Shown here piece after piece: positions 52-17,577 of a stretch of 23,806 nt of DNA. The DNA comes from Escherichia coli (GTDB lineage Bacteria > Pseudomonadota > Gammaproteobacteria > Enterobacterales > Enterobacteriaceae): the NCBI GenBank assembly GCA_025544715.1, contig GCA_025544715.1_4109.5. The stretch is one strand, 5' to 3'. The notes beneath the pieces were generated by a model that did not search any database, was not told the origin of the DNA, and saw only the letters and a program-made list of their open reading frames with translations. Within the stretch, counting starts at the first letter, position 1. Each line of letters opens with the position of its first letter. The translations under genes were made by a program, and so were the position numbers.

Positions 52-80
52 TTGACAATATCATCCAGTACTGGCATAAT
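52..80 (+). promoter_or_regulatory. sigma70-type promoter
   Basis: TTGACA (52-57), 17-nt spacer containing AGTACTG, CATAAT (75-80), then conserved ACTTACATCAAG start region. Confidence 0.6.
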
Positions 81-140
81 ACTTACATCAAGACGAGAAC
101 GTCACTAACCCATAGGGTGCACAAATGTAACTGTCTAATA

Positions 141-642: not shown

Positions 643-670
643 TTGACAGTACTGAAAGATAGTGTATACT
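643..670 (+). promoter_or_regulatory. sigma70-type promoter
   Basis: TTGACA (643-648), 16-nt spacer with AGTACTG, TATACT (665-670). Confidence 0.6.
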
Positions 671-699
671 ATTTTATATCTTAACTGAGGATTGAAATC

Positions 700-1056
700 A
701 TGGGTATTCAACACATCACGCGTACTACTGACAATGGCGAGATCACTGGCTATCAAGTACAGGGCAAAGTAGCACAATTGCAGTACTGGTTTGTAAAACG
801 TGGATTGATTGCACCGGATCTTGATTATGACCGTGTAGCGTTTATTGATTCTCTTTATGTTGATCCTGATAGTCGGGGCAATGGTGAAGGTAACGAATTA
901 ATGAATGCCTTTATTGATGCCGCCGATGATTCAGATTGTATCATTTTAGAATGCGATACGGGAGAAGATAACGCCTTTAATCTTAAAGAATGGTACGAAG
1001 GTTTCGGATTCGAGGTACTGATCGATAGTGAATATCCTATCATGATTTTATCATAG
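700..1056 (+). CDS. small GNAT-like N-acetyltransferase (118 aa)
   Basis: GAGG RBS; VDPDSRGNGEGNELM resembles GNAT motif A (R-x-x-G-x-G) and C-terminal FNLKEWYEGFGF resembles motif B; judged by eye only. Confidence 0.55.
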   Translation: MGIQHITRTTDNGEITGYQVQGKVAQLQYWFVKRGLIAPDLDYDRVAFIDSLYVDPDSRGNGEGNELMNAFIDAADDSDCIILECDTGEDNAFNLKEWYEGFGFEVLIDSEYPIMILS

Positions 1057-1059
1057 TAC

Positions 1060-1088
1060 TTGCATTTAGTTTTCAGTACTGTTATAGT
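1060..1088 (+). promoter_or_regulatory. sigma70-type promoter
   Basis: TTGCAT (1060-1065), 17-nt spacer with AGTACTG, TATAGT (1083-1088), ACTTACATCAAG downstream. Confidence 0.6.
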
Positions 1089-1720: not shown

Positions 1721-1741
1721 GGGGAGAAAATGATTCTCCCC
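1721..1741 (+). other. 5' leader stem-loop (GGGGAGAA / TTCTCCCC)
   Basis: perfect 8-bp inverted repeat with 5-nt loop between promoter and RBS. Confidence 0.6.
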
Positions 1742-2251: not shown

Positions 2252-2397
2252 AAGAATTCTTATTCGAAGTAGTGTTTCAAGGTGTCGGTAGTAACCAACT
2301 GATTCGCTCAAGTGGTTACAATGTTAACCAGGCATGGAATAACATTAAACAAATGTACCCGAACGCTATCACATATCGCAACCCGAAAGAAGTTTAA
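2248..2397 (+). CDS. hypothetical small protein (49 aa)
   Basis: translated by hand; ATGA overlap upstream; ends just before terminator-like hairpin. Confidence 0.45.
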   Translation: MKEFLFEVVFQGVGSNQLIRSSGYNVNQAWNNIKQMYPNAITYRNPKEV

Positions 2398-2411
2398 AAA
2401 GAATTGAAAAA

Positions 2412-2433
2412 GGGATTGACTCCGGTCAGTCCC
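2412..2433 (+). terminator. terminator-like hairpin GGGATTGAC-TCCG-GTCAGTCCC
   Basis: 9-bp stem with one G-U pair and 4-nt loop, preceded by A-run, followed by TTTGCTATTATATA. Confidence 0.5.
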
Positions 2434-2444
2434 TTTGCTATTAT
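2416..2444 (+). promoter_or_regulatory. promoter embedded in hairpin
   Basis: TTGACT (2416-2421), 17-nt spacer, TATTAT (2439-2444). Confidence 0.55.
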
Positions 2445-2535
2445 ATACGCATAGAAACAAATCAGCCCACAGGGTGCATAAATGTATCTATTGTTTGCTG
2501 GTGGCTAGTACTGAAAACTATTTTTAAAAAAGTAC

Positions 2536-2563
2536 TTGCATTGTACTTAGAATCAAGTATAAT
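2536..2563 (+). promoter_or_regulatory. sigma70-type promoter of the AAAAAGTACTTGCA class
   Basis: A-tract, TTGCAT (2536-2541), 16-nt spacer, TATAAT (2558-2563), GTTTTACAT downstream; same cassette at 5262, 6118, 6453, 7961. Confidence 0.6.
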
Positions 2564-2651
2564 GTTTTACATCAGGACGGGGAACGAAACAAGTAACCCC
2601 GTTAAGTAGTCCAGGAGTAAGACATAAGAAAACCTCCCCTGATAAAATAGT

Positions 2652-2712: not shown

Positions 2713-2988
2713 ATGCGGATTCTACTGACAGCTAACGAAATCGAACAAGTACTGACTACTAACCTGGAAGACTGGAAACGTGAAGCAGATATCCAGGCGG
2801 TTCAATGGCTTAACGATAAGTTAACGCCGGATGACTTAAGCAAGATTGTAGATCCTCAATTCTACGAAGATATTCACGACACCGCGTTAAGCGTCGAGGA
2901 TGTACTTGATAAGCACTACATTGATATTGATTTGCAGGTTTACGGTCGTAAAAACTTTATCACTATTCACGACATTTACAATAATTAA
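2713..2988 (+). CDS. hypothetical protein (91 aa)
   Basis: AAGGA RBS 10 nt upstream of ATG; promoter upstream. Confidence 0.7.
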   Translation: MRILLTANEIEQVLTTNLEDWKREADIQAVQWLNDKLTPDDLSKIVDPQFYEDIHDTALSVEDVLDKHYIDIDLQVYGRKNFITIHDIYNN

Positions 2989-2991
2989 GTA

Positions 2992-3019
2992 TTGACAAAG
3001 TATCTTAGTACTGTATAAT
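2992..3019 (+). promoter_or_regulatory. sigma70-type promoter (consensus)
   Basis: TTGACA (2992-2997), 16-nt spacer with AGTACTG, TATAAT (3014-3019); almost identical to promoter at 5569. Confidence 0.7.
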
Positions 3020-3034
3020 AGTTTACATCAAGGC

Positions 3035-3052
3035 AGGGGGAATGGTTCCCCT
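3035..3052 (+). other. 5' leader stem-loop (AGGGGGA / TTCCCCT)
   Basis: inverted repeat with AATGG loop between promoter and RBS. Confidence 0.55.
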
Positions 3053-3076
3053 CCTAACTAAAAGAGAGAAATTAAA

Positions 3077-3400
3077 ATGGCTATGATCCTGTCCCAGAAA
3101 GTAGAACTGAAAATTGTAACCTCCTTTGACATTAAAGTGAATCGCTGGACTGATCGGAACGGTAACACTTACCACTCTTGCTACGTGTCCGCATTGATTG
3201 GTGATCGCTGGGAGGATTTAGGACACGAAACATTTACATACGGTTACGGCACTCAAGGCGAATACACGGGCTTGGAGATCATTAAAGAAACCGTTATAGG
3301 TTTCAACCCGAAAGAAAACGTTATTCACCGCATCGAGGAAGAGATCAACAAAGAAATAACAGTTCGCTACTACGATGTAAAACGTAAGAAAGATATGTAA
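3077..3400 (+). CDS. hypothetical protein (107 aa)
   Basis: promoter, leader hairpin, purine-rich RBS, ATG. Confidence 0.7.
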   Translation: MAMILSQKVELKIVTSFDIKVNRWTDRNGNTYHSCYVSALIGDRWEDLGHETFTYGYGTQGEYTGLEIIKETVIGFNPKENVIHRIEEEINKEITVRYYDVKRKKDM

Positions 3401-3422
3401 TAGAATCCATTTAAAGTACTAT

Positions 3423-3451
3423 TTGACATTGCCCAGATAGTACTTTATAAT
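3423..3451 (+). promoter_or_regulatory. sigma70-type promoter (consensus)
   Basis: TTGACA (3423-3428), 17-nt spacer with AGTACT, TATAAT (3446-3451). Confidence 0.7.
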
Positions 3452-3913: not shown

Positions 3914-3938
3914 GGCGGGATCAGTTCCCGCCTTTTTT
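3914..3938 (+). terminator. rho-independent terminator
   Basis: GGCGGGA-TCAGT-TCCCGCC 7-bp GC-rich stem followed by TTTTTT. Confidence 0.8.
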
Positions 3939-3953
3939 ATAGGATAAACTAAA

Positions 3954-4208
3954 ATGATGAAGGTACAACTATCTAAAGATAATATCTTGCGGGTACACTA
4001 TAAAGCACCACAGAGAATCATCACAAAGGCCGTACAGCTTGCTAATGAGTTTATTAATGGTAGTCTATTACCCAGGAAGTTAAGCAACGGGAAACTACGT
4101 GTTATCGATGTAGACACTAACAACAGAATAGTAATTGAGAATACTGGAAAGATAAACCTTTATGAGCATCAACAGTATAATAAGAAAATAAAACTAATAT
4201 CACGTTGA
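3954..4208 (+). CDS. hypothetical protein (84 aa)
   Basis: AGGA RBS then ATG; lies directly after terminator, so expression may rely on read-through. Confidence 0.6.
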   Translation: MMKVQLSKDNILRVHYKAPQRIITKAVQLANEFINGSLLPRKLSNGKLRVIDVDTNNRIVIENTGKINLYEHQQYNKKIKLISR

Positions 4209-4233
4209 CAGTACTCAAATGTTTTAGTACTAT
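4205..4233 (+). promoter_or_regulatory. candidate sigma70-type promoter
   Basis: TTGACA (4205-4210) overlapping upstream stop codon, 17-nt spacer with two AGTACT, TACTAT (4228-4233). Confidence 0.5.
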
Positions 4234-4262
4234 GTATCTATACCAACACGGGGGAAAACAAA

Positions 4263-4505
4263 ATGATTACTTTAGAAAAACGTATCAAAGAAACTACATC
4301 GCTGGTGGAACTGTTAACTGTACTGAAATGCCGTACTACTCGGTTTAGTACACCGGACTTTATTAATATGGTTGATGTTAACGGTCGTTATCGCATTGCA
4401 GTAGAACAAGGAACAGCGAAAGTATTCAGTACTAAAAACACTAAGGAAGTGATTCACGCTGTAAGTGTTAAAAAAGTAGTTGCAATTGATAGTAAAGTAC
4501 TGTAA
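4263..4505 (+). CDS. hypothetical protein (80 aa)
   Basis: GGGGGA RBS then ATG. Confidence 0.6.
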   Translation: MITLEKRIKETTSLVELLTVLKCRTTRFSTPDFINMVDVNGRYRIAVEQGTAKVFSTKNTKEVIHAVSVKKVVAIDSKVL

Positions 4506-4536
4506 GATAGTTACATTAACTCAAGGAGAACATGCA

Positions 4537-5121
4537 ATGCGTCAATATACTAAATTCATCCGGTCCCTGTCAGAAATGGAAACTAATAAAGAGATCCTTT
4601 CAGCTTGTCGGTTAGCTGGTCTGGAAATCATCGGGGCCGGATCATCCCGTATAGTATTCGCTTTAAATGATCGGTTAGTGATTAAGGTCGCTAATTGTGA
4701 TGCGGGTGTAGAACAAAATGAAACTGAATGTAAGGTATGGAATTTTTTAGACTATGACCGCCCTCAGTTGAAACAGTTCTTTGCTAAGGTGCATATGCAT
4801 TTAAGCGATCCTGATAATATGTTTATTGTTATGGATCGTTTGAGTACTGCAAGCAAAGGCAGTGTAAAGCACGTTAACGCGTGCAACGAATTAAAGTACA
4901 ATATTAAACGTAATGCCATTGAACGCCAGCACCGCTTTGCTGATGCATTACAACACGTTGATGATACCTTATCAACCCTAACGTTAAGAGATATCAGAAA
5001 ACAGAACATCGGCCAGGATCGCAACGGCCTTATTAAAGTACTTGATTACGGTTTAACCCGCAATATCTGGAATCAGTACTATAAAAAGCGTGATGTAAAA
5101 GCCGTAACTATAACACGATAA
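4537..5121 (+). CDS. minimal protein-kinase-like protein (194 aa)
   Basis: AGGAGA RBS 7 nt upstream of ATG 4537 (ORF track extends to 4480). Gly-rich loop IGAGSSRIVF, then VIKV lysine, catalytic-loop-like DIRKQNIG (D-x-K-x-x-N) and DFG-like LDYG. Confidence 0.55.
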   Translation: MRQYTKFIRSLSEMETNKEILSACRLAGLEIIGAGSSRIVFALNDRLVIKVANCDAGVEQNETECKVWNFLDYDRPQLKQFFAKVHMHLSDPDNMFIVMDRLSTASKGSVKHVNACNELKYNIKRNAIERQHRFADALQHVDDTLSTLTLRDIRKQNIGQDRNGLIKVLDYGLTRNIWNQYYKKRDVKAVTITR

Positions 5122-5135
5122 AAAAGATTAAAAAT

Positions 5136-5157
5136 GGGATTGACTTCGGTCAGTCCC
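5136..5157 (+). terminator. terminator-like hairpin GGGATTGAC-TTCG-GTCAGTCCC
   Basis: 9-bp stem, UUCG tetraloop, U-containing tail; directly after stop of kinase-like gene. Confidence 0.5.
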
Positions 5158-5168
5158 TTTGCTATTAT
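5140..5168 (+). promoter_or_regulatory. promoter embedded in hairpin
   Basis: TTGACT, 17-nt spacer, TATTAT (5163-5168). Confidence 0.55.
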
Positions 5169-5261
5169 ATATTCATTGAGAGATAGCTCACTGACCCACA
5201 GGGTGCAGAAGTGTATCTATTATATAAGTATTCAGTACTGAAAACTATTTTTAAAAAGTAC

Positions 5262-5290
5262 TTGCAAACTATCTCAAATCGCGTATAATG
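5262..5290 (+). promoter_or_regulatory. sigma70-type promoter of the AAAAAGTACTTGCA class
   Basis: TTGCAA (5262-5267), 17-nt spacer, TATAAT (5285-5290). Confidence 0.6.
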
Positions 5291-5301
5291 TTTTATATCG
5301 A

Positions 5302-5323
5302 GAGGGGGAAATGGTTCTCCCTG
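5302..5323 (+). other. 5' leader stem-loop (GGGGGAA / TTCTCCC)
   Basis: inverted repeat with AATGG loop; the loop ATG is the spurious ORF-track start at 5311. Confidence 0.55.
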
Positions 5324-5343: not shown

Positions 5344-5565
5344 ATGACTACAATGACTTGCATTCACGCTTCAAACCTGCTTAATGATGCGGCCTTTAAT
5401 GTTGAAACAGAATATCAATGTTATCGGGATGAAAATAAAAAAGTTTTTGTAGTTGATAATAATGGTTTCCATATTGAATTGCAATCCGGTTTCACTGGCA
5501 TTGATGGTAAATCAGTATGGGGCGTACAGGACGATAAAGGCACATATCATTTTAAACGTAATTAA
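5344..5565 (+). CDS. hypothetical protein (73 aa)
   Basis: start moved from 5311 (hairpin loop) to ATG 5344, 8 nt after AAGGA. Confidence 0.6.
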   Translation: MTTMTCIHASNLLNDAAFNVETEYQCYRDENKKVFVVDNNGFHIELQSGFTGIDGKSVWGVQDDKGTYHFKRN

Positions 5566-5568
5566 GTA

Positions 5569-5596
5569 TTGACAAAGTATATCAGTACTGTATAAT
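5569..5596 (+). promoter_or_regulatory. sigma70-type promoter (consensus)
   Basis: TTGACAAAGTAT-ATCAGTACTG-TATAATAGTTTACATCAAGG, near-identical to 2992-3033. Confidence 0.7.
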
Positions 5597-5608
5597 AGTT
5601 TACATCAA

Positions 5609-5627
5609 GGGGAGAATAGTTCTCCCC
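5609..5627 (+). other. 5' leader stem-loop (GGGGAGAA / TTCTCCCC)
   Basis: perfect 8-bp inverted repeat, loop TAG. Confidence 0.6.
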
Positions 5628-5649
5628 GATACTAAAAGGAAACAAAATT

Positions 5650-5922
5650 ATGTCTAGCTACTCCGCTACTATGATCATTAAAGATATGAACGGTAATCCT
5701 ACTTCTGCTGGTGGATCATTTGGAAACATTAACTTAGATGGTCGGTTATCAATTGAATCAGCCATCAATGCAGCGAAAGAAGTTTTTAAGAATGAATGTA
5801 CTGTAAGCAAGCTGGATTATATGGGCTTCGCTATCGAAAAAACTAATCGTTTTGTGGACTACAAAAAACCACTGATGATTGATACTAACCTGAAAGCGAA
5901 CGAAGTGGAATACTTATTATGA
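5650..5922 (+). CDS. hypothetical protein (90 aa)
   Basis: AAGGA RBS then ATG. Confidence 0.65.
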   Translation: MSSYSATMIIKDMNGNPTSAGGSFGNINLDGRLSIESAINAAKEVFKNECTVSKLDYMGFAIEKTNRFVDYKKPLMIDTNLKANEVEYLL

Positions 5923-6157: not shown

Positions 6158-6178
6158 GCGGGGGAATAGTTCTCCCGC
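6158..6178 (+). other. 5' leader stem-loop (GCGGGGGAA / TTCTCCCGC)
   Basis: 9-bp stem with one G-U pair; same hairpin repeated at 7132-7152. Confidence 0.6.
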
Positions 6179-7131: not shown

Positions 7132-7152
7132 GCGGGGGAATAGTTCTCCCGC
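7132..7152 (+). other. 5' leader stem-loop (GCGGGGGAA / TTCTCCCGC)
   Basis: identical to hairpin at 6158-6178. Confidence 0.6.
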
Positions 7153-7174: not shown

Positions 7175-7375
7175 ATGTCTATCGCTATCGCCCTGGTTGA
7201 AGTACTGAAAGAAGCTAAAGCCAACCTTATCGATGTACAGATTAAGGAATTGCAAAATGGTTTAATCGGCTGTACTTGTACCGCTGGTGGAGCGGCAGAC
7301 TATCGGGAATTCGAATCACTTGAATCGATGGTCCGTTATCTTACCATGATCGTAGAAGATTGGAGAATCATCTAA
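7175..7375 (+). CDS. hypothetical protein (66 aa)
   Basis: GGAG RBS then ATG. Confidence 0.6.
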   Translation: MSIAIALVEVLKEAKANLIDVQIKELQNGLIGCTCTAGGAADYREFESLESMVRYLTMIVEDWRII

Positions 7376-7393
7376 CAAAAAAGAATAAAAAAA

Positions 7394-7415
7394 GGGATTG
7401 ACTCCGGTCAGTCCC
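7394..7415 (+). terminator. terminator-like hairpin GGGATTGAC-TCCG-GTCAGTCCC
   Basis: same hairpin as 2412-2433. Confidence 0.5.
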
Positions 7416-7426
7416 TTTGCTATTAT
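7398..7426 (+). promoter_or_regulatory. promoter embedded in hairpin
   Basis: TTGACT, 17-nt spacer, TATTAT (7421-7426). Confidence 0.55.
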
Positions 7427-7538
7427 ATACGCATAGACAAAAACTAGCCCACTGGGTGCAGGAGTGTATCCAAAATATATAGTTAATAACGGTGAGTAAC
7501 TATTTGCTGGTGGAGTGAAAACTATTAATAAAAAACTA

Positions 7539-7567
7539 TTGACAAAGTATATCAGTACTGCAATAAT
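7539..7567 (+). promoter_or_regulatory. candidate sigma70-type promoter
   Basis: TTGACAAAGTATATCAGTACTG then AATAAT; weaker -10 than sibling promoter at 5569. Confidence 0.5.
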
Positions 7568-8000: not shown

Positions 8001-8022
8001 GAGGGAGAAATGGTTCTCCCTC
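8001..8022 (+). other. 5' leader stem-loop (GAGGGAGAA / TTCTCCCTC)
   Basis: perfect 9-bp inverted repeat with ATGG loop; loop ATG is the spurious ORF-track start 8010. Confidence 0.6.
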
Positions 8023-8750: not shown

Positions 8751-8816
8751 AAAAAAGTCAAGGCGTTTTTAAAATTATGCGTTAAAAAAATGCATAGGTA
8801 ATCCCTTGACTTTTTT
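8751..8816 (+). other. 13-bp perfect inverted repeat flanking a 40-bp spacer; possible bidirectional terminator or operator
   Basis: AAAAAAGTCAAGG (8751-8763) and CCTTGACTTTTTT (8804-8816) are exact reverse complements; inner TATGC/GCATA pair. Confidence 0.35.
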
Positions 8817-8941: not shown

Positions 8942-8971
8942 ATGATTGATATTAATTTTAAGGGAGTCCCT

Positions 8972-9169
8972 ATGCATATTTTAACTCAAGCAGAACACCA
9001 CGAAAGACTTATCAATAACATGGCTATGATAATGTATAAGTCACATGAACGTGGTATGTCCTATAAGCGTGAATTAGTTATGGCACTATTCATTGGGACT
9101 AACTTTCAGGAAAGGTATGTCAACGATTGGATTTGGTATTTAATTGAAGATATAACGAGTAAACTATGA
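8972..9169 (+). CDS. family-1 paralog 1 (LGTNYQ-motif small protein)
   Basis: AAGGGAG RBS then ATG 8972 (ORF-track start 8942 is upstream of the RBS); C-terminal LFIGTNFQERYV...IEDITSKL. Confidence 0.65.
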   Translation: MHILTQAEHHERLINNMAMIMYKSHERGMSYKRELVMALFIGTNFQERYVNDWIWYLIEDITSKL

Positions 9170-9366
9170 AAATGCGTAAATTAACCGAAAAAGAATATCA
9201 AGCACTGTTACGTAAAAACTACACAAAGATTTATAATACAGACTCACACGTAGAAAGAATGGAGTTATACCTTTTGATTACATTGGGAACTAACTATCAG
9301 GATGCATGGGTAACGAAATATGTGGATACATTGAAAAATAAAACATTGTCCACGAGGAAACAATGA
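9166..9366 (+). CDS. family-1 paralog 2
   Basis: ATGA overlap; ITLGTNYQDAWV motif. Confidence 0.7.
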   Translation: MKMRKLTEKEYQALLRKNYTKIYNTDSHVERMELYLLITLGTNYQDAWVTKYVDTLKNKTLSTRKQ

Positions 9367-9572
9367 AAACTATAACACGAACCCAATCATTCGGACTTAT
9401 CTTGAAATACATGGACTTAATGGTGGATATCAGCAAAGACCTGCCTAAAACTGAAATTGAAGTTGCAAGAGCAGAGATCCGCATGTTGGCTGTACTGAAC
9501 ACAAACCATCAGGAAGATTATGTTGAAGAATGGATTCATTTTTTAATAGAAGATATTAAGAGTAAATTATGA
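9363..9572 (+). CDS. family-1 paralog 3
   Basis: ATGA overlap; AVLNTNHQEDYV...IEDIKSKL. Confidence 0.7.
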   Translation: MKTITRTQSFGLILKYMDLMVDISKDLPKTEIEVARAEIRMLAVLNTNHQEDYVEEWIHFLIEDIKSKL

Positions 9573-9784
9573 TTATTATAGAAAACTCATATCAATATAC
9601 TGAACGCATTGCTGCCAGGCAACTTGAAATCCTCATAATATACGAAGAGACTTCTGATTTAAACTTAGCTGAGGTATTGGAAAATGAAATACTTTTGGGT
9701 GCATTCTTGGGAACTGACTATCAGGAGTATTATGAGCAAAAGTATTTGTCATCTCTTGAGAAATACATCAGGAGCAAATTATGA
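9569..9784 (+). CDS. family-1 paralog 4
   Basis: ATGA overlap; AFLGTDYQEYY motif. Confidence 0.7.
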   Translation: MIIIENSYQYTERIAARQLEILIIYEETSDLNLAEVLENEILLGAFLGTDYQEYYEQKYLSSLEKYIRSKL

Positions 9785-9993
9785 TTTTTTTAACACCTGA
9801 AGAATATAAGAAACGTTTTAATTCTGTCCAGACTGAAATATTACTTATATACCTTTCAAATGCAGACCTTAACTTATCAAGGGCAATGGAGAAGGATTTA
9901 CTTATGGGTGCATTTTTGGATACAGACTTTCAGGAGTATTATGTAGGGAAATACTTAATTGAACTTCAGAACTACATTAAGAGTAAACTATGA
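9781..9993 (+). CDS. family-1 paralog 5
   Basis: ATGA overlap; AFLDTDFQEYYV motif. Confidence 0.7.
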   Translation: MIFLTPEEYKKRFNSVQTEILLIYLSNADLNLSRAMEKDLLMGAFLDTDFQEYYVGKYLIELQNYIKSKL

Positions 9994-10208
9994 AACATTT
10001 AAGTAATATAGAGAAGAATAAAATTATCATAGCTGCAATAAACAAATATTTTACACTTCAACAAAAAGAATGTTTATCTATAAGGGAACACAGAATAAAC
10101 ACCACCGATGTACGCATGATGGCTGTACTGGGGACTAACTTCCAAGAAGGCTATGTTCATGAGCACATCGTTGCACTCACTAATTACATAATGGACAAAT
10201 GTAAATGA
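9990..10208 (+). CDS. family-1 paralog 6
   Basis: ATGA overlap; AVLGTNFQEGYV motif. Confidence 0.7.
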   Translation: MKHLSNIEKNKIIIAAINKYFTLQQKECLSIREHRINTTDVRMMAVLGTNFQEGYVHEHIVALTNYIMDKCK

Positions 10209-10417
10209 AACGTCTTAGCAGCAGAGAATATTCTGCTATATTACATAAAGCTTTACCTGAGTTACAAAACATCGAGACGACCATCCCTGAGCCAACGCGA
10301 GGTGTACTGTTTACGGATTGTATGTTATTACACTTCATGGGAACTAATCACCAAGAATCTATAGTATCATCTCTCATCAACGCACTTAAACTTGAAATAA
10401 GAGACAAATGTAAATGA
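10205..10417 (+). CDS. family-1 paralog 7
   Basis: ATGA overlap; HFMGTNHQESIV motif. Confidence 0.7.
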   Translation: MKRLSSREYSAILHKALPELQNIETTIPEPTRGVLFTDCMLLHFMGTNHQESIVSSLINALKLEIRDKCK

Positions 10418-10671
10418 AACACTTGACAGACGATGAATATTCACTTAGAATTCGAAAGCTCACCCCAGAAGCAAGAGTAATCTACGATGACGATGCACTT
10501 TCATGGGTAGAGATGAAAGTTAAAGTTAATGAGCTATGGTTGCTGTACTTTCTGGGGACTAACTATCAAGAGAAATATTGCACCGATTACATTGAACAAC
10601 TAATGGAACTTATACAGGAAAAACTAAATGATCGAATTGTGGAAAAATATGAAAACTTTATCAAGCACTGA
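10414..10671 (+). CDS. family-1 paralog 8 with C-terminal extension
   Basis: ATGA overlap; YFLGTNYQEKY motif; usual junction stop is missing, giving a 13-aa extension overlapping the next gene. Confidence 0.65.
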   Translation: MKHLTDDEYSLRIRKLTPEARVIYDDDALSWVEMKVKVNELWLLYFLGTNYQEKYCTDYIEQLMELIQEKLNDRIVEKYENFIKH

Positions 10672-10900
10672 GTATCAAACTGCCCTATTCTCTTTACTAA
10701 ACACCCTTCGCAAGAACAATGAACTTTATCCTTCCCCTGAGAATGATGTAGTTAATGGAGACGTGCTCCTTCTTAAATTCATTGGAACTGATAAACAAGA
10801 TACCTTCACTGATCGTTATATCAATGCACTAAGAAACCTTGTAGCATATAAAACCCGCAAGGCCCAAAGAGAATGGAAGAGACAATGCGACAAAGACTAA
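10628..10900 (+). CDS. family-1 paralog 9
   Basis: KFIGTDKQDTF motif; family-like N-terminus begins at in-frame ATG 10649, so the true start may be 10649. Confidence 0.6.
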   Translation: MIELWKNMKTLSSTEYQTALFSLLNTLRKNNELYPSPENDVVNGDVLLLKFIGTDKQDTFTDRYINALRNLVAYKTRKAQREWKRQCDKD

Positions 10901-11136
10901 ATCACAAAATGTATTGTAAACTATTACAATCACTGGCACAGAAACACTATGATACAGTATCTGAAATATTACCCTATGATATCATGCGTTTAATTCATAG
11001 TGAGGCCGAGATGCTTGTACTGATGAGAGGGACTGATAAAACAGCAATAGCCAGATCGATTGAGCAATATATTGATGCACACTGCCAACACATGAGAACC
11101 GAAATCTGGAGGAAAGAGAATGAAACTCCTGAGTAA
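10873..11136 (+). CDS. family-1 paralog 10 (divergent)
   Basis: LMRGTDKTAIARSIEQYI keeps G-T-D and spacing but loses the Q; overlapping frame. Confidence 0.55.
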   Translation: MEETMRQRLNHKMYCKLLQSLAQKHYDTVSEILPYDIMRLIHSEAEMLVLMRGTDKTAIARSIEQYIDAHCQHMRTEIWRKENETPE

Positions 11137-11353
11137 TTATGAATATTATAGTCTGTTGCGAACTATACAAGCAAAAGTTTCTAGTATTTCTTTAAACAAA
11201 TCTATTGCACAAGAGGACAAATGTGTTATAATGGCTGAAATGAAGTTAGCTCTCTTCGTTGGAACAAACTATCAAAACATCTACACTGACGTATTGTTAG
11301 CCAGCCTACGCAACAAGGTGTTATCCAAAAATGAGAAAATTACAAGGTGTTGA
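11120..11353 (+). CDS. family-1 paralog 11
   Basis: MKLLSNYEYYSLLR N-terminus; LFVGTNYQNIY motif. Confidence 0.65.
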   Translation: MKLLSNYEYYSLLRTIQAKVSSISLNKSIAQEDKCVIMAEMKLALFVGTNYQNIYTDVLLASLRNKVLSKNEKITRC

Positions 11354-11549
11354 ATATATTAAGCTTCTGAAAACCTGTGCAAGCAGAAGGAGAAAGATTC
11401 AAAATGATAAAAGCATCTCTATTGACCTTAAGCACGCACTAGTAACTGAACTCTATGTAGGTGCACTCTTAGGCACAGACTATCAACAAATGTATGTAGA
11501 CATGTGGATTGAGGCTCTACTGAAAGAGGTTAAAAGTAAATGCAAATGA
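11331..11549 (+). CDS. family-1 paralog 12
   Basis: ALLGTDYQQMYV...KSKCK. Confidence 0.65.
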   Translation: MRKLQGVEYIKLLKTCASRRRKIQNDKSISIDLKHALVTELYVGALLGTDYQQMYVDMWIEALLKEVKSKCK

Positions 11550-11785
11550 TTAATTTAACTTATATTGAATATCAAAAACGTTTAAATGCATCCAGAGATA
11601 TAAGGATTCAAATATTCAATAACAAAAGATTGAAGCCTGATATCAGGAAAATCAAAATCATAGAAGCAGAGTTGTGCAACTTTTTAGGGACGAACTATCA
11701 GGCAGGTAAGGTAAAAAACTATCTTAGAGAACTCATGAATAGTATTGAAAATAAATGCAAGGATAATGAATATGAAAATGATTAA
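11540..11785 (+). CDS. family-1 paralog 13
   Basis: NFLGTNYQAGKV motif; in-frame ATG 11546 would give the usual ATGA overlap. Confidence 0.65.
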   Translation: MQMINLTYIEYQKRLNASRDIRIQIFNNKRLKPDIRKIKIIEAELCNFLGTNYQAGKVKNYLRELMNSIENKCKDNEYEND

Positions 11786-12011
11786 ATTATCTCAAGCAAA
11801 ATATAAAGAACGCCTGGTGAAAATTGCACCTGGACTTAATGAAATCCATCACGGAGAAGTCATTAAACATGGAAATAAGATGATTATGAAACTTGAGTTA
11901 AAGGTGGGTGCATTCATAGGAACAAACTATCAGGAGTATTATGTAGATGAATACATAATCGCACTTAAGAGATACATTGGAAGAAAACTATATCTACAAA
12001 CTAAAGAATAG
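11772..12011 (+). CDS. family-1 paralog 14
   Basis: ORF-track start 11745 is TTG; ATG 11772 follows AAGGA; AFIGTNYQEYYV motif. Confidence 0.6.
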   Translation: MKMIKLSQAKYKERLVKIAPGLNEIHHGEVIKHGNKMIMKLELKVGAFIGTNYQEYYVDEYIIALKRYIGRKLYLQTKE

Positions 12012-12040
12012 TATTGAAAATAAATGCGAGGATAATGAAC

Positions 12041-12304
12041 ATGAAAATGATTAATTTAAGTAAAGATGAATATACCGAGCGTATGGCAAAAATCTCAACT
12101 AAACGTAACACACTCTATCACAACCCAGAAATTCAACACAGTAAGAAAATGATTATGATGCGTGAGTTAAAGATGGGAGTATTCTTAGGAACAAACTATC
12201 AAGATACAGAAGTAAATCGCTTAATTTCGGAGTTACTAATGGAAATCAGAGGTAAGCTGTACTTTCATCAAATTACCCAACCACTGAGGTGTACTAAGAA
12301 ATGA
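12041..12304 (+). CDS. family-1 paralog 15
   Basis: ORF-track start 12014 is TTG; ATG 12041 follows GAGGA; VFLGTNYQDTEV motif. Confidence 0.6.
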   Translation: MKMINLSKDEYTERMAKISTKRNTLYHNPEIQHSKKMIMMRELKMGVFLGTNYQDTEVNRLISELLMEIRGKLYFHQITQPLRCTKK

Positions 12305-12516
12305 TCAACATCACATTGCAAGAAAGATTCATCCGAATCAACTATGCAATTACCAAATTAGATGCTACTATAGGATTCCAAAGTCTACCATATAAAACCA
12401 GATTGTTATTAGAGTGTGAAGCTAAGTTGGGTGTACTGTTAGGGACGCAACACCAACAACGATATGTGGAAATCTGGATTGACCTTTTAACCCAAAATAT
12501 ATATGAGAGAATGTAA
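12301..12516 (+). CDS. family-1 paralog 16
   Basis: ATGA overlap; VLLGTQHQQRYV motif. Confidence 0.7.
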   Translation: MINITLQERFIRINYAITKLDATIGFQSLPYKTRLLLECEAKLGVLLGTQHQQRYVEIWIDLLTQNIYERM

Positions 12517-12753
12517 ATGCAAAATGAAATGATATACTTAACGAATGAAGAATTTCAAGAGAAGATGTTAAAAACCAAAAACATTAATCTTAAGTTCGTT
12601 CCAAATCAATCAATATCTGAAGTATCTGCAAATGTATTGTTTCAGAAGCTACCATACTTTCTTGGAACTGATAAACAAGAATTTATGGTTCAAAATATGA
12701 TTGAACATCTTATGATGAGTATTAAGGAAAAAGTAAATGCAAAAACAAAATGA
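12517..12753 (+). CDS. family-1 paralog 17
   Basis: starts right after upstream stop; YFLGTDKQEFMV motif; N-terminus MQNEMIYLT shared with next gene. Confidence 0.65.
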   Translation: MQNEMIYLTNEEFQEKMLKTKNINLKFVPNQSISEVSANVLFQKLPYFLGTDKQEFMVQNMIEHLMMSIKEKVNAKTK

Positions 12754-13003
12754 AATGATATACTTAACACCTGCTGAGTTAACAGAAAGACTAGTTAAAT
12801 CCAGAAGATATACAAATCAACTTCCTCACAACCCAAACCAGACCCCAGCCGAAAGGAGTGCAGAAGTTTTATTCCAATCACTACCATACCTTCTTGGAAC
12901 TAATAGACAAGAGTATCATATCGAACGTATAATTAGATATCTTAAAATTACTATTCAGGAAAAGATACATGAACAAGAATATAAAAATCTTTACGGTCAA
13001 TGA
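12737..13003 (+). CDS. family-1 paralog 18
   Basis: YLLGTNRQEYHI motif; N-terminus MQKQNEMIYLT. Confidence 0.65.
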   Translation: MQKQNEMIYLTPAELTERLVKSRRYTNQLPHNPNQTPAERSAEVLFQSLPYLLGTNRQEYHIERIIRYLKITIQEKIHEQEYKNLYGQ

Positions 13004-13226
13004 ATATCATGATATTATAATGAAGACGAATATTGTAAATTCTAAAATTTCAAATACCAAGTTCATCCTTGAACATACATTAGAAGAACGACAATTGATA
13101 TTAGTTGAAGCAAAACTTCTTGCACTATTAGGTTCTAACTATCAAGACGAGTACATAAGAAAACTAATATACCTTTTAACTAAACATATCAGAAAAAAGA
13201 CACATGAAACACTTGACAGACGATGA
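12969..13226 (+). CDS. family-1 paralog 19
   Basis: ALLGSNYQDEYI motif. Confidence 0.65.
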   Translation: MNKNIKIFTVNEYHDIIMKTNIVNSKISNTKFILEHTLEERQLILVEAKLLALLGSNYQDEYIRKLIYLLTKHIRKKTHETLDRR

Positions 13227-13434
13227 ACATGGGCTTATAGTAATGGATGTAATCAACATCGAATACAAAAAGTTGATACGCTACCGTTGTTATGAAGATA
13301 AGCAACTAGTTCTAGCAGAACAGAAGTTGTTTCGACTCTTAAACACAAACTACCAAGCACAATACGAAGAATCGTATATGTACCTTTTGGCGAGGAAAGC
13401 AAAAAGAGATTATGAAAATTTTAAGCAAAGGTGA
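13204..13434 (+). CDS. family-1 paralog 20
   Basis: RLLNTNYQAQY motif; first 24 nt identical to paralog 8 (ATGAAACACTTGACAGACGATGAA). Confidence 0.65.
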   Translation: MKHLTDDEHGLIVMDVINIEYKKLIRYRCYEDKQLVLAEQKLFRLLNTNYQAQYEESYMYLLARKAKRDYENFKQR

Positions 13435-13639
13435 TTCAGTAATATTACTTATAGAGAGTTCAAGTCAATTCTTAAACATATCACTGTCTGATATAGATGA
13501 AGATGATAAAGAAGTACTGAGAGCAGATTTAAGAGTACTGTTACATCTCGGAACAAACCTACAAGAAAGATATGTAGAGTACTACATTGATGAACTTAAA
13601 GAATCAGTACTGAGAAAATGCAAATGCAAATGCGAATGA
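13412..13639 (+). CDS. family-1 paralog 21
   Basis: HLGTNLQERYV motif; C-terminus KCKCKCE encoded by AAATGC hexamer repeat. Confidence 0.65.
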   Translation: MKILSKGDSVILLIESSSQFLNISLSDIDEDDKEVLRADLRVLLHLGTNLQERYVEYYIDELKESVLRKCKCKCE

Positions 13640-13851
13640 TTACCGACGAAGAATACCTAACAATCATAAATGGACTGTTTTTGAAGCTCTTCGTCATTAA
13701 CACATCAGATATACCAGATATGGATAAAATTATTAAGAGAAATGAAATCTATGTTCTAGCTACCCTGGGAACTAACTATCAAGAATACGATATTAATGAT
13801 TATATTAAGACACTTAAACGAGCGATTGAACTAAAATGCCAAAACCACTAG
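13618..13851 (+). CDS. family-1 paralog 22
   Basis: ATLGTNYQEYDI motif; start may be ATG 13636 (ATGA overlap). Confidence 0.6.
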   Translation: MQMQMRMITDEEYLTIINGLFLKLFVINTSDIPDMDKIIKRNEIYVLATLGTNYQEYDINDYIKTLKRAIELKCQNH

Positions 13852-14051
13852 GAACAGCAGAATACATTGAACTCATGGGATTACACTTCTCATCCTTTCA
13901 GAAACTTATGCGAGAATCAAAGAATGATTTAGAATATACCATCAGAGGTTCAGATTTAAGAATGCTTCTCACCCTAGACACAGATTCCCAAGAGCGATTT
14001 GTCAATGAGCACATTAGAGCACTTTTAATGGAAATTCAAAGTAAACTATGA
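13836..14051 (+). CDS. family-1 paralog 23
   Basis: TLDTDSQERFV motif. Confidence 0.65.
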   Translation: MPKPLGTAEYIELMGLHFSSFQKLMRESKNDLEYTIRGSDLRMLLTLDTDSQERFVNEHIRALLMEIQSKL

Positions 14052-14263
14052 AGGTAATATCAAACCAAGAGTACTTGGCACTATTCAGAAAGAATAATCA
14101 TAAATTTATGGCACTTGATACAAGAACTGATATAGGGGAACTTGAAAAAAATCTTTTGCGTTCAGAGATGATAGTACTGACACTCTTAGGAACACAGCAT
14201 CAAGAAAGAACTGTTAATTCACACATAGAAATACTTAAGAAGCTTATACAGGAAAAGTTATGA
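14048..14263 (+). CDS. family-1 paralog 24
   Basis: ATGA overlap; TLLGTQHQERTV motif. Confidence 0.7.
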   Translation: MKVISNQEYLALFRKNNHKFMALDTRTDIGELEKNLLRSEMIVLTLLGTQHQERTVNSHIEILKKLIQEKL

Positions 14264-14481
14264 GAATCATAACACAACAAGATATGTTTAAGTTCACAAG
14301 GGATTATGCATCTGAATTTGATGCTATATTATCAAAAAGTTACAATGACCCTTATACAGAAGATGTACACTACAATGAATTATGGATGTATATACTTTTA
14401 GGTACAAATAAGCAAGAGCAAGCAGTACAGAAGTATTTGACAGCCTTAAGTACTGCTACTGCTAATGGAGTATGTGTTTAA
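14260..14481 (+). CDS. family-1 paralog 25
   Basis: ATGA overlap; ILLGTNKQEQAV motif. Confidence 0.7.
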   Translation: MRIITQQDMFKFTRDYASEFDAILSKSYNDPYTEDVHYNELWMYILLGTNKQEQAVQKYLTALSTATANGVCV

Positions 14482-14725
14482 AATGCTAGTACTGACAGAA
14501 TTAGAAATGGCAATGAGGTTTAATAGATTCAGACATTTACTTAAACCTATACAGAGGATTAAGTGCCCATTTGTAGTGAAACAGGTATTAATTTATGAGC
14601 ATAAGTTATTTGTATCATTAGGTACGAATGAACAAGAGTATTATTTGAAGTTGTACTTAATTACATTAATAGATTTAATTCACTATAAAACCAAACAAGC
14701 TAATAAAGAGAAATATGAAAACTAA
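14465..14725 (+). CDS. family-1 paralog 26
   Basis: VSLGTNEQEYYL motif; alternative start ATG 14483. Confidence 0.6.
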   Translation: MEYVFKMLVLTELEMAMRFNRFRHLLKPIQRIKCPFVVKQVLIYEHKLFVSLGTNEQEYYLKLYLITLIDLIHYKTKQANKEKYEN

Positions 14726-15059
14726 TATACAACTCAAGGTATATAAATCATTTGAACATACATATATCAAAAGTAGTCTATGTAGAGATGTAATGGATTA
14801 CAAGGGTAAGCCATTCACAATTACCTATGATTCTTATGTTAGTGATTTATATATATCATTTGTTAATTACGAAAATAAAATATACAAGCACGTTGATATT
14901 AAAGATTTAAGTACTTTATCACCAGAGGAATACTTTCAGGAATCATTAGTATGGGATTTAGAGTTTCCTATGCCATTAGTACATAAGATGATAGTACTAA
15001 TGAAAGAATCTAAACAGGAGCCTAATAGTGCTTATGAAGAACACATTATTGAGTATTAA
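14715..15059 (+). CDS. family-2 paralog (acidic-FQ motif protein, 114 aa)
   Basis: SPEEYFQESLVWDLEF motif; overlaps end of last family-1 gene. Confidence 0.65.
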   Translation: MKTNIQLKVYKSFEHTYIKSSLCRDVMDYKGKPFTITYDSYVSDLYISFVNYENKIYKHVDIKDLSTLSPEEYFQESLVWDLEFPMPLVHKMIVLMKESKQEPNSAYEEHIIEY

Positions 15060-17276: not shown

Positions 17277-17577
17277 AATGCTTTATACATTAACATTAAT
17301 ATATGTAGAATTAGAATCCGATTCAGATGCATGGAATTTAGTTAAAGAGGTCGATACAAATCAATGGTACATGGCAAATTTAGACGCACAGGTTGTTACG
17401 GATTATTTTATAGATTTTAATACATTATCTGAAGAAGAATTTTTCCAAATGCAATTGGTGGTTGACATGTACGGGCATGACATGGTAACATTACGAAATA
17501 TACAGAAAGCCGTTAATGAAATCCAAAGCAAGAAAGATTATGAGGTAGGAGCGTATTATGACATCGACGTACAATGA
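17266..17577 (+). CDS. family-2 paralog (103 aa)
   Basis: LSEEEFFQMQLVVD motif; close paralog of next gene. Confidence 0.7.
   Translation: MKYKMLYTLTLIYVELESDSDAWNLVKEVDTNQWYMANLDAQVVTDYFIDFNTLSEEEFFQMQLVVDMYGHDMVTLRNIQKAVNEIQSKKDYEVGAYYDIDVQ

What the first reader, a model, noticed from the sequence alone, without database searches (positions are those of the whole stretch)
2412..2444. Promoter folded into a terminator-like stem (possible mutually exclusive termination and initiation)
The -35 hexamer TTGACT forms the 3' end of the 5' arm and the loop of the 9-bp hairpin, while the -10 TATTAT lies in the U-rich tail. As RNA from upstream transcription the element looks like an intrinsic terminator (loop TCCG, or UUCG in copy 2); as DNA it is a sigma70-type promoter. 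Such overlap would insulate each downstream unit from upstream read-through.
Basis: inference. Interest (0 to 1): 0.55.

Follow-up and report, generated by a model that had tools for sequence, protein, structure and literature searches.

The report
Phage promoter built into a terminator hairpin
This is a compact phage control cassette in which one 36-base stretch can both stop transcription from the gene before it (as an RNA hairpin) and start transcription of the next unit (as a host-type promoter). The design was already described in T4-like phages as PeSLs, and here it turns up in a jumbo coliphage.

Summary
At 2409-2444 a 9-12 bp hairpin (-15 to -19.5 kcal/mol, UCCG loop) holds TTGACT in its 5' arm and loop. 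Its 3' arm is the 17-nt spacer, and TTT-TGc-TATTAT follows. Two more copies lie at 5136-5168 and 7391-7426.

The window is an early, small-ORF region of an Asteriusvirus jumbo coliphage (PBECO4/121Q/G17 group). The same architecture occurs about 35 times in 170 kb sampled from six RaK2-like phages, on the gene strand in all but one case (a palindromic site), mostly 4-24 nt after a stop codon.

- **RNA helix:** stem sequences covary, with 6 of 12 pairs changed on both sides. G.U pairs outnumber A.C by 69 to 6, so the helix is selected in sense-strand RNA.
- **Promoter:** TTGAC was a search criterion; TAnnnT, which was not required, is invariant at 17-18 nt.
- **Compromise:** these promoters deviate from consensus where a terminator needs U, and they carry a compensating TGn.

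The closest known kind is the PeSL (promoter-early stem-loop) of T4-like phages, tested experimentally in RB49/phi1. Here the -35 lies inside the stem rather than beside it. Termination efficiency and the "mutually exclusive" idea remain untested.

Verdict: new member of a known kind, modest interest. An unexplained conserved leader motif (CCCAYNGGGTGC...) follows each copy.

The parts
2396..2411 (+). A-rich tract (AAAAAGAATTGAAAAA), starting at the last base of the stop codon of ORF 2248-2397. It is positioned as a proximal UP-element-like A-tract, and its last 3 A pair with the T-tract to extend the stem.
   Evidence: The A-tract is nearly invariant in 33 family members. The UP-element role is inferred from position only.
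2409..2436 (+). Copy 1 stem-loop: 12 bp (9-bp G+C core 2412-2433), loop TCCG 2421-2424 (UNCG type with C-G closing pair). Predicted intrinsic terminator or attenuator for transcripts coming from ORFs 1759-2397.
   Evidence: The homologous site in the phage G17 record is annotated as an ARNOLD terminator, -13.0. Covariation.
2416..2421 (+). -35 hexamer TTGACT (top of the 5' arm plus the first loop base).
   Evidence: TTGAC was the anchor of the family search, so its invariance is by construction. The sixth base is T in 28/37 hairpin promoters against 14/89 ordinary ones.
2436..2444 (+). TGc + TATTAT: extended -10 and -10 hexamer. The same bases form the distal U-rich tail (UUUGCUAUUAU) of the terminator.
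   Evidence: T, A and final T of the hexamer are invariant in 34/34 aligned members although not required by the search. TGn occurs in 29/37 against 19/89. TATTAT occurs in 18/33 against 7/81.
2451..2491 (+). Predicted transcript start (A2451, in CAT) and conserved leader. It contains CCCACAGGGTGC (2466-2477) and ATGTATCTAT (2482-2491). Function unknown.
   Evidence: The start position is inferred (7 nt after the -10).
5136..5168 (+). Copy 2: core stem-loop 5136-5157 (loop TTCG), -35 at 5140-5145, -10 at 5163-5168. It lies 14 nt after the stop of ORF 4480-5121. Predicted start A5175; leader motif at 5195-5220.
7391..7426 (+). Copy 3: stem-loop 7391-7418 (loop TCCG), -35 at 7398-7403, -10 at 7421-7426. 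Its G+C core begins 18 nt after the stop of ORF 7175-7375. Predicted start A7433; leader motif at 7448-7473.
2536..2563 (+). Second, stronger-looking promoter of module 1 (TTGCAT-16-TATAAT, preceded by AAAAAGTAC), about 85 nt downstream of the hairpin promoter's predicted start. Equivalent promoters follow copies 2 (5262-5289) and 3 (7539-7567).
   Evidence: read directly; repeat family D1.

Best explanation
The element is a PeSL-type composite regulatory cassette of a virulent phage's early region: an intrinsic terminator (or attenuator) and a host sigma70 promoter written in the same about 36 bases.

**Termination (inferred).** RNA polymerase that started at an upstream early promoter transcribes the stop codon, the A-tract and the inverted repeat. 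The nascent RNA folds into a 9-12 bp hairpin capped by a C(UNCG)G tetraloop and followed by UUUGCUAUUAU. The transcript is released about 7-9 nt after the stem, that is, inside the -10 hexamer.

**Initiation (inferred).** On double-stranded DNA the same bases read as A-tract, TTGACT, a 17-nt spacer, TGn and TATTAT. Host holoenzyme should start a new transcript about 10 nt further on, at A2451.

**Dual use of each part.** The A-tract is UP-like and extends the stem. TTGAC is the -35 and the top of the stem. The sixth -35 base is the U of the UNCG loop. The spacer is the 3' arm plus the U-tract. The -10 is the distal U-rich tail.

**Effect.** The cassette punctuates the early region into units of about 2.5 kb and resets the 5' end of each. 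In this phage the new 5' end carries a conserved leader motif.

**Shown here:** the sequence anatomy, repetition, strand bias, RNA-sense covariation, conservation of the -10 hexamer, and the pattern of compromise and compensation.

**Inferred:** actual termination, actual initiation, and their efficiencies.
For: 1. **Anatomy and stability:**
2. **Family:** 45 anchored hits in the window and seven related loci, 44 of them on the gene strand. Among TTGAC sites, 35/278 on the gene strand carry the hairpin against 1/142 on the other strand.
3. **Position:** the G+C core starts 4-24 nt after a stop codon in 28 of 34 sites.
4. **Covariation:** 95% of cells are paired, 6/12 pairs show changes on both sides (30 cells), 0/500 shuffles reach this, and slid registers collapse to 28-63% paired. 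A further compensatory G-C to A-U change is seen in phage Turkey5.
5. **Strand asymmetry:** 69 G.T/T.G cells against 6 A.C/C.A cells in the stem. The helix therefore works only in sense RNA, which argues against a protein-binding palindrome or a symmetric cruciform.
6. **Loops:** 21 of 39 are UNCG and 2 are GAAA.
7. **Promoter:** TAnnnT at 17-18 nt is invariant although it was not a search criterion. The CCCAYNGGGTGC leader lies 50-58 nt from TTGAC behind both hairpin promoters and ordinary promoters, which places a transcript start after the hairpin promoters too.
8. **Compromise and compensation:** sixth -35 base T in 28/37 against 14/89; TATTAT in 18/33 against 7/81; TGn in 29/37 against 19/89.
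9. **Independent annotation:** the G17, GAP32, Munch and Murica records call these hairpins terminators. GAP32 calls one family member a promoter.
10. **Precedent:** in RB49/phi1 PeSLs the stem-loop of PeSL211/210 reduced lacZ expression about as much as rrnB T1, and the promoters were too strong to clone intact (PMC2839356). Canonical RB49 PeSLs read here show the same logic, and one (PeSL191/190) has an initial transcribed sequence similar to that of a window promoter.
Against: - There is no transcript mapping for this phage or any RaK2-like coliphage in the searchable literature.
- The U-tract is short (3 U, then GCUAUUAU) and even weaker in CBB and GAP32 copies (CUUCUGUAUACU), so termination may be partial.
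- An elongating polymerase must enter the promoter to reach the release point, so the cassette cannot fully protect its own promoter from occlusion.
- Family members are related by descent, so the counts and Fisher p-values are not independent events. The sequences were also selected for pairing (>=8 of 9), which inflates the percentage paired.
- Each window copy is followed about 85-110 nt later by a stronger-looking promoter, so the need for the hairpin promoter is not obvious.
Confidence: 0.75

Rival explanations
1. Terminator only. The TTGAC and TATTAT are by-products of a hairpin family with a U-rich tail, and no transcription starts here.
For: Most database records annotate these hairpins only as terminators or stem-loops. 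A stronger-looking promoter follows about 85-110 nt downstream in each window copy.
Against: T, A and final T of the -10 are invariant at 17-18 nt from TTGAC in 34/34 members without being selected. TGn is enriched, 29/37 against 19/89. Many RaK2, Munch and BF copies lie only 56-75 nt before the next ORF start. The leader motif sits at the same 50-58 nt from TTGAC as behind ordinary promoters. Ordinary terminators in the same genomes lack TTGAC.
Confidence: 0.07
2. Promoter with a DNA-level inverted repeat. The palindrome is an operator for a dimeric (phage) repressor, or a cruciform or single-strand hairpin promoter like those of phage N4 or the F plasmid's Frpo, and not an RNA terminator.
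For: The inverted repeat covers the -35 and the spacer, a classic operator position. Early-promoter shut-off is expected in such phages (general knowledge).
Against: The stem sequence varies freely while complementarity is kept: GGGA/TCCC, GTGG/CCAT, GTAC/GTAC, GGAG/CTCC. That is the opposite of a protein recognition site. G.T pairs outnumber A.C 69 to 6, so the opposite strand cannot form the same helix; the minus-strand fold is weaker (-14.1 kcal/mol, interrupted). UNCG and GNRA loops point to RNA. The element always follows a stop codon on the coding strand.
Confidence: 0.04
3. RNA 3'-end stabiliser or weak attenuator. The hairpin mainly protects upstream mRNAs from 3' exonucleases, or marks a processing site, while most polymerases read through. 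The promoter function is as in the main explanation.
For: The U-tract is short or imperfect, especially in CBB and GAP32. Arbiol et al. also write 'terminator/attenuator'.
Against: A T3-6 run directly after the G+C core is conserved (T29 and T30), and ARNOLD accepts the sites. A comparable RB49 stem-loop with an even poorer tail (UAUACU) lowered reporter expression like rrnB T1.
Confidence: 0.12
4. Recombination cassette. The conserved repeat is kept mainly as a homology patch for modular shuffling of small ORFs (PeSL mini-circle model), and its regulatory activity is secondary.
For: Indels between the window and G17 or Turkey5 are bounded by repeated promoter cassettes, with 86-109 nt of duplicated junction. 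Near-identical cassettes occur in unrelated phage families.
Against: None of the mapped indels has a hairpin-promoter copy at its boundary; the boundaries are ordinary promoter cassettes. Recombination alone would not select for RNA-sense covariation or for the hexamers.
Confidence: 0.02

Closest known systems
PeSLs (promoter-early stem-loops), the composite promoter-terminator cassettes of T4-like phages (Arbiol et al. 2010, PMC2839356; Comeau et al. 2014, PMC4122927)
   Same: - Intergenic, on the coding strand, and directly after a stop codon in an A/T-rich tract.
- A near-consensus sigma70 early promoter physically overlaps a G+C-rich stem-loop, and the -10 hexamer serves as the tail.
- Many copies occur in regions full of small ORFs of unknown function.
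- The published subclasses include stem-loops that overlap the -35 box.
- One RB49 PeSL resembles a window promoter in its initial transcribed sequence: RB49 PeSL191/190 ...CATCAAGACGAGATACC against window 76-96 ...CATCAAGACGAGAACG.
- An element matching the family consensus sits after rIIB in the KVP40-like phage ValKK3.
   Different: - In the canonical RB49 cassettes read here, the 6-7 bp stem (GGGGATC...GATCCCC) lies entirely inside the spacer, with no U-run.
- In the window, TTGAC is the top of a 9-12 bp stem, the loop is a UNCG tetraloop, a T3-6 run and TGn precede the -10, and the architecture is stereotyped.
- The host lineage is the RaK2-like jumbo phages, not Straboviridae.
- The window copies are followed by a conserved non-coding leader and a second promoter, not by a Shine-Dalgarno sequence and ATG.
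- A role in recombination is not shown for these copies.
Canonical intrinsic (Rho-independent) terminators, including bidirectional ones flanked by A- and T-tracts
   Same: A G+C-rich stem with a stable tetraloop, a 3' U-run and a 5' A-tract. A classical example lies in the same window at 3914-3932.
   Different: The U-tract is interrupted after 3-6 U by G(C/T) and continues as the -10 hexamer. The stem carries a conserved -35.
Extended -10 (TGn) sigma70 promoters
   Same: TGn immediately upstream of the -10 with a slightly non-consensus -10 and -35. TGn is strongly enriched in the hairpin class.
   Different: Here the -35 is still near consensus (5/6). TGn looks like compensation for constraints imposed by the overlapping terminator (inference).
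Hairpin or single-strand promoters (phage N4 early promoters; F plasmid Frpo)
   Same: Promoter elements lie within an inverted repeat.
   Different: Those act as DNA hairpins recognised by a special polymerase or on single-stranded DNA. Here the hexamers, spacing and TGn fit duplex sigma70 recognition, and the G.U asymmetry points to RNA.

Membership tests
PeSL (composite promoter-terminator cassette of T4-like phages) | sigma70-like early promoter with an A/T-rich upstream region | tested here: met
   TTGACT-17-TGc-TATTAT preceded by AAAAAGAATTGAAAAA; conserved across 34 members.
PeSL (composite promoter-terminator cassette of T4-like phages) | Stable stem-loop within, overlapping or adjacent to the promoter | tested here: met
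   9-12 bp stem, -15 to -19.9 kcal/mol, overlapping the -35 and filling the spacer. The overlap-with--35 subclass is named in PMC2839356.
PeSL (composite promoter-terminator cassette of T4-like phages) | Intergenic, between the stop codon of one gene and the Shine-Dalgarno/ATG of the next | tested here: inconclusive
   The stop codon lies 4-24 nt upstream in 28/34 sites. About a third of sites in related phages have the next ORF start 56-75 nt downstream. The three window copies are followed by 170-300 nt of non-coding leader plus a second promoter.
PeSL (composite promoter-terminator cassette of T4-like phages) | Many copies in a plastic region of small ORFs | tested here: met
   3 copies in 8 kb of the window; 7-10 per 22-40 kb in the RaK2, CBB and GAP32 early or terminal-repeat regions.
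PeSL (composite promoter-terminator cassette of T4-like phages) | Association with indel or recombination breakpoints | tested here: inconclusive
   Indels against G17 and Turkey5 are bounded by repeated ordinary promoter cassettes, not by the hairpin copies.
PeSL (composite promoter-terminator cassette of T4-like phages) | Promoter and terminator activity shown experimentally | not testable with these tools
   Shown only for RB49/phi1 cassettes.
PeSL (composite promoter-terminator cassette of T4-like phages) | Carried by a T4-like (Straboviridae) phage | tested here: not met
   The window is 96% identical to Asteriusvirus genomes. The same design does occur in Straboviridae (ValKK3, Aeromonas phage 65.2) and in other families.
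Intrinsic terminator | G+C-rich hairpin selected at the RNA level on the transcribed sense strand | tested here: met
   Covariation and G.U against A.C, 69:6.
Intrinsic terminator | U-rich tract of about 7-9 nt immediately 3' of the stem | tested here: inconclusive
   UUUGCUAUUAU: 3 consecutive U, 7 of 11 U overall. It passes the scan and ARNOLD in the G17 record, but it is weaker than the TTTTTT at 3933-3938.
Intrinsic terminator | Transcript release in vitro or in vivo | not testable with these tools
   No term-seq or in vitro data found.
sigma70 promoter (extended -10 class) | -35 and -10 hexamers at 16-18 nt spacing, with TGn | tested here: met
   10/12 matches, 17-nt spacer, TG present. 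The -10 hexamer is invariant in the family.
sigma70 promoter (extended -10 class) | Transcription start 6-8 nt after the -10 | not testable with these tools
   Indirect only: a conserved CAT at the expected +1, and a leader motif at a fixed distance from TTGAC.
Operator palindrome for a dimeric repressor | Conserved half-site sequence on both strands | tested here: not met
   Half-site sequences vary while pairing is kept, and the complementarity is asymmetric between strands.
Rfam RNA families | Match to a curated covariance model | tested here: not met
   No hit at gathering score in the window. Only chance-level hits in 2380-2720.

The most novel reading that the evidence does not exclude
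The cassette may be more than an insulator.

1. **Polymerase hand-over.** The predicted RNA release point lies inside the -10, about 10 nt from the next predicted start. The terminator could therefore hand the same polymerase, still on the DNA, to sigma70 for immediate re-initiation. The cassette would then act as a device that cuts the transcript, re-caps it and gives the new 5' end a conserved leader.

2. **Leader as a nut- or put-like signal.** The leader (small covarying hairpin plus CCCAYNGGGUGC-N4-UGUAUCU) was found 48 times behind promoters on both strands of six RaK2-like phages. It could mark polymerases for read-through of later hairpin cassettes, giving an immediate-early to delayed-early switch.

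A related reading is that near-identical cassettes in Gram-negative and Gram-positive phage families reflect a single optimal overlapping code reached by convergence.
Probability: 0.1. Interest if true: 0.65.

Novelty: new member of a known kind. Interest (0 to 1): 0.35.

Why it matters
- **Annotation.** Genome annotation of jumbo phages currently labels members of one family as 'terminator', 'stem_loop' or 'promoter', never both (GAP32, G17, Munch records). Recognising the dual cassette gives better transcription-unit maps for their large early regions.
- **Overlapping code.** Nearly every base of 36 serves two purposes, and the cost to the promoter (TTGACT, TATTAT) is visibly offset by TGn.
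- **Synthetic biology.** The cassette is a compact, portable insulator-plus-promoter part.
- **Distribution.** It occurs in T4-like, rV5-like, RaK2-like and even Brochothrix phages but not in 5,426 E. coli genomes. This suggests a feature specific to virulent phages, spread by convergence or by cassette exchange.

Tried and rejected
- **Structured RNA or tRNA:** Rfam gave no family at gathering score and only chance hits at E<=10 in 2380-2720. There are no tRNAs.
- **Small ORF in the downstream leader:** an RTG-TAT-CTA reading frame exists, but its stops fall after 3 to 25 codons in different copies, and no credible ORF lies in 2451-2712. Rejected.
- **Operator or cruciform reading:** rejected on sequence variability and G.U asymmetry.
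- **Stably folded leader:** the MFE z-scores of -0.8 to -1.2 are not significant. RNAalifold gave only a weak consensus of -5.7 kcal/mol.
- **Transcriptome data for Asteriusvirus or RaK2-like phages:** none found. One query was wasted by a loose setting. The PA5oct and CBB papers list promoters and terminators separately, with no mention of overlap in the passages read.
- **Hairpin copies as synteny breakpoints:** not seen against G17 or Turkey5.
- **Host genomes:** no match to the 47-nt consensus in the E. coli collection.
- **Partner-permutation control:** it gave a high background (mean 6.4, maximum 13, against 35 observed) because family arms resemble each other. The opposite-strand control is cleaner.

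Full report
**1. What the window is.** The region around the finding is 90-97% identical to about 40 jumbo coliphage genomes of the genus Asteriusvirus (PBECO4, 121Q, G17 and others). In G17 and related records it belongs to an array of small hypothetical genes, all on one strand, in or next to the long terminal repeat. The window has dozens of near-consensus sigma70 promoters on the + strand, no tRNA and no Rfam family.

**2. The observation.** It is correct to the base.

- A2409-C2420 pairs with G2425-T2436. This gives a 9-bp G+C core at 2412-2433, one U.G wobble and three flanking A-U pairs. The loop is UCCG.
- TTGACT (2416-2421) is the end of the 5' arm plus the first loop base.
- The 17-nt spacer is the rest of the loop, the whole 3' arm and 'gc'.
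- T2436-G2437 gives TGn, and TATTAT is at 2439-2444.
- The predicted start is A2451.

The folds are -19.5 kcal/mol (full stem) and -15.0 (core), with z about -4 to -5.5. Two further copies (5136-5168 with a UUCG loop; 7391-7426) give 3 matches against 0 expected. All three are part of a 93-nt repeat. Their G+C cores begin 14-18 nt after the stop codons of ORFs 2248-2397, 4480-5121 and 7175-7375.

**3. It is a family.** A scan anchored only on TTGAC, a 4-nt loop and at least 8 of 9 pairs found 45 sites in the window plus loci from G17, RaK2, CBB, GAP32, Munch, Serratia phage BF and pEa_SNUABM_12. Of these, 44 are on the gene strand. Among all TTGAC sites, 35/278 on the gene strand have the hairpin against 1/142 on the other strand.

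The stems differ: GGGA/UCCC, GUGG/CCAU, GUAC/GUAC, GGAG/CUCC, AGGA/UCCU. On 33 distinct sequences:

- 95% of cells pair.
- 6 of 12 pairs show changes on both sides (30 cells).
- No shuffle out of 500 reaches the observed values.
- Sliding the partner by one to three columns drops pairing to 28-63%.

Caveats apply. The sequences were selected for pairing and are related by descent, so these numbers describe consistency and are not independent events.

**4. The helix is in RNA, on the sense strand.** G.T/T.G cells outnumber A.C/C.A cells 69 to 6. The CBB and GAP32 copies pair UUGAC with GUUGG or GUUAG, which is impossible on the complementary strand. The minus-strand fold of copy 1 is interrupted and weaker (-14.1 kcal/mol). 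Twenty-one of 39 loops are UNCG with a C-G closing pair, and two are GAAA. This excludes a protein-binding palindrome and a symmetric cruciform as the selected feature. Because the predicted start lies downstream of the hairpin, the hairpin RNA can only come from upstream transcription, which is where a terminator would have to act.

**5. The promoter is also selected.** The search did not require a -10, yet T, A and the final T of TAnnnT are invariant in 34/34 aligned members at 17-18 nt from TTGAC.

A second, independent argument comes from a conserved leader motif (CCCAYNGGGTGC...). It lies 50-58 nt after TTGAC both behind these hairpin promoters and behind ordinary promoters, on both strands of the loci. 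That places a transcript start after the hairpin promoters too.

About a third of sites in RaK2, CBB, GAP32, Munch and BF have the next ORF start only 56-75 nt after the -35.

**6. Compromise and compensation.** I compared hairpin promoters with ordinary TTGACN promoters in the same loci.

| Feature | Hairpin promoters | Ordinary promoters |
|---|---|---|
| T as sixth -35 base (the U of UNCG) | 28/37 | 14/89 |
| TATTAT as -10 rather than TATAAT (more U in the tail) | 18/33 | 7/81 |
| TGn extended -10 | 29/37 | 19/89 |

The nominal Fisher p-values for the -35 and TGn contrasts are about 1e-9 to 1e-10, but the copies are not independent. The pattern is what one expects if both functions are under selection and constrain each other. 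The link to function is inference.

**7. Mechanism proposed.** See Best explanation. In short, upstream transcripts fold the hairpin and are released within the -10. Holoenzyme binds the same duplex and starts about 10 nt downstream. Independent predictors agree on the terminator: ARNOLD in G17 (-13.0) and GAP32, and terminator features in Munch and Murica. GAP32's annotators labelled different members of this one family 'terminator', 'stem_loop' or 'promoter', never both.

**8. Comparison with what is known.** The concept is published. PeSLs (promoter-early stem-loops) are 'composite conserved promoter-terminator motifs' of T4-like phages (PMC2839356, PMC4122927).

- Arbiol et al. state that the stem-loop may lie between the boxes, overlap the -35 or the -10, or lie upstream or downstream of the promoter.
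- They showed that one stem-loop reduced lacZ expression about as much as rrnB T1.
- They showed that the promoters are too strong to clone unmutated.
- They showed that PeSLs recombine into mini-circles.

I read canonical RB49 PeSLs directly, for example AAAAAAGTTG-TTGACA-GGGGATC-ACGT-ATCCCC-TATACT. The logic is the same, but the 6-7 bp stem sits inside the spacer. In one case (PeSL191/190) the initial transcribed sequence resembles that of a window promoter (CATCAAGACGAGA...).

A 47-nt consensus of the present family matches 211 phage records. These include KVP40-like Vibrio and Aeromonas T4-like phages, Certrevirus and rV5-like phages, 50-kb Yersinia myophages and Brochothrix phage A9. In the six hits I inspected, the match lies between annotated genes on the coding strand. 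The consensus matches nothing in 5,426 complete E. coli genomes.

The finding is therefore a new member of a known kind in RaK2-like jumbo phages, with an unusually stereotyped architecture in which the -35 lies inside the stem. I found no paper describing PeSL-like cassettes in these phages, within the limits of the library.

**9. Recombination role.** Indels between the window and G17 or Turkey5 are flanked by duplicated promoter cassettes, as in the PeSL shuffling model. Two of them are window-specific segments at 654-1073 and 1324-1672. The others are extra ORFs in the relatives at window junctions 2975-3083, 4181-4266 and 5564-5662. However, the boundaries are ordinary promoter cassettes, not the hairpin copies. 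That PeSL feature is therefore unproven for this element.

**10. What remains open.**

- Termination efficiency is unknown. The U-tract is short, and it is weak in CBB and GAP32.
- It is unclear why a second promoter follows each window copy.
- The conserved leader is unexplained. Its core is invariant in 48 copies, its 3' partner varies only in wobble-compatible ways, and the RNA is not unusually stable.

Noticed in passing
window 109-134, 2466-2491, 5195-5220, 7448-7473 (also about 44 further copies in L002-L006 and L014, both strands): A conserved motif, CCCAYNGGGTGC-N4-(T/A)GTATCTAT, usually preceded by a small covarying hairpin (GGC/GCC, GAG/CTC, AGCA/TGCT, GGAG/CTCC). It lies 50-58 nt after a TTGAC -35 in most copies (about +15 to +40 of the predicted transcript). 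It is usually followed by AGTACT and another promoter rather than an ORF. It is not in Rfam and the fold is not unusually stable. Function unknown; it could be a leader, a nut- or put-like signal, or a protein site.
   Followed up: partly
window 3413-3448 (also CBB L003 near 6000, 8945, 12071, 13127; Munch L005 at 8330, 9269, 11260, 13140): A second class of promoter-in-hairpin. Strong TTGACA-17-TATAAT promoters are enclosed by a 12-14 bp A/U-rich inverted repeat built on AGTACT (TAAAGTACTATTTG...CAGATAGTACTTTA). The fold is -19.9 kcal/mol with z -6.9, and the element lies directly after ORF 3077-3400.
   Followed up: partly
window 1721-1741, 5303-5322, 5609-5627, 6158-6178, 7132-7152, 8001-8022: Recurrent 8-9 bp hairpins (GGGGAGAA-tag-TTCTCCCC and variants). 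They lie within about 20 nt after the -10 of strong promoters and just before the ribosome-binding site, so they look like 5'-terminal stabiliser stem-loops.
   Followed up: no
window 654-1073, 1324-1672; junctions 2975-3083, 4181-4266, 5564-5662: Indels relative to phages G17 and Turkey5 each remove or add one small ORF. In the cases I examined they are bounded by repeated promoter cassettes (86-109 nt duplicated at the junctions), as in PeSL-mediated modular shuffling.
   Followed up: partly
window 2536-2651: An apparently orphan expression cassette: promoter TTGCAT-16-TATAAT, a 5' hairpin (2577-2604) and AGGAG (2613-2617). No start codon or ORF follows before the next promoter at 2652. It may be a remnant of a deleted ORF.
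   Followed up: partly
window 8942-15059: A tandem array of about 25 small paralogous ORFs (66-114 aa) that share internal motifs such as GGAACTAACTATCAGGA (repeat families D5, D8, D14). Many have overlapping start and stop codons.
   Followed up: no
window 76-96 versus L015 (RB49) PeSL191/190: The initial transcribed sequence of a window promoter (CATCAAGACGAGAACG) closely resembles that of an RB49 PeSL (CATCAAGACGAGATACC). This hints at shared ancestry or exchange of early-promoter cassettes between T4-like and RaK2-like phages.
   Followed up: no
L004 (GAP32) 8789-8810, 17290-17313, 17536-17564, 19371-19392, 21722-21746: Members of the same hairpin-promoter family are annotated in one GenBank record as stem_loop, terminator or promoter, never as both.
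   Followed up: yes
window 3914-3932: A classical intrinsic terminator (GGCGGGA-TCAGT-TCCCGCC followed by TTTTTT, -15 kcal/mol) with no promoter hexamers. It is also scored on the minus strand and is a useful internal contrast to the composite cassettes.
   Followed up: partly
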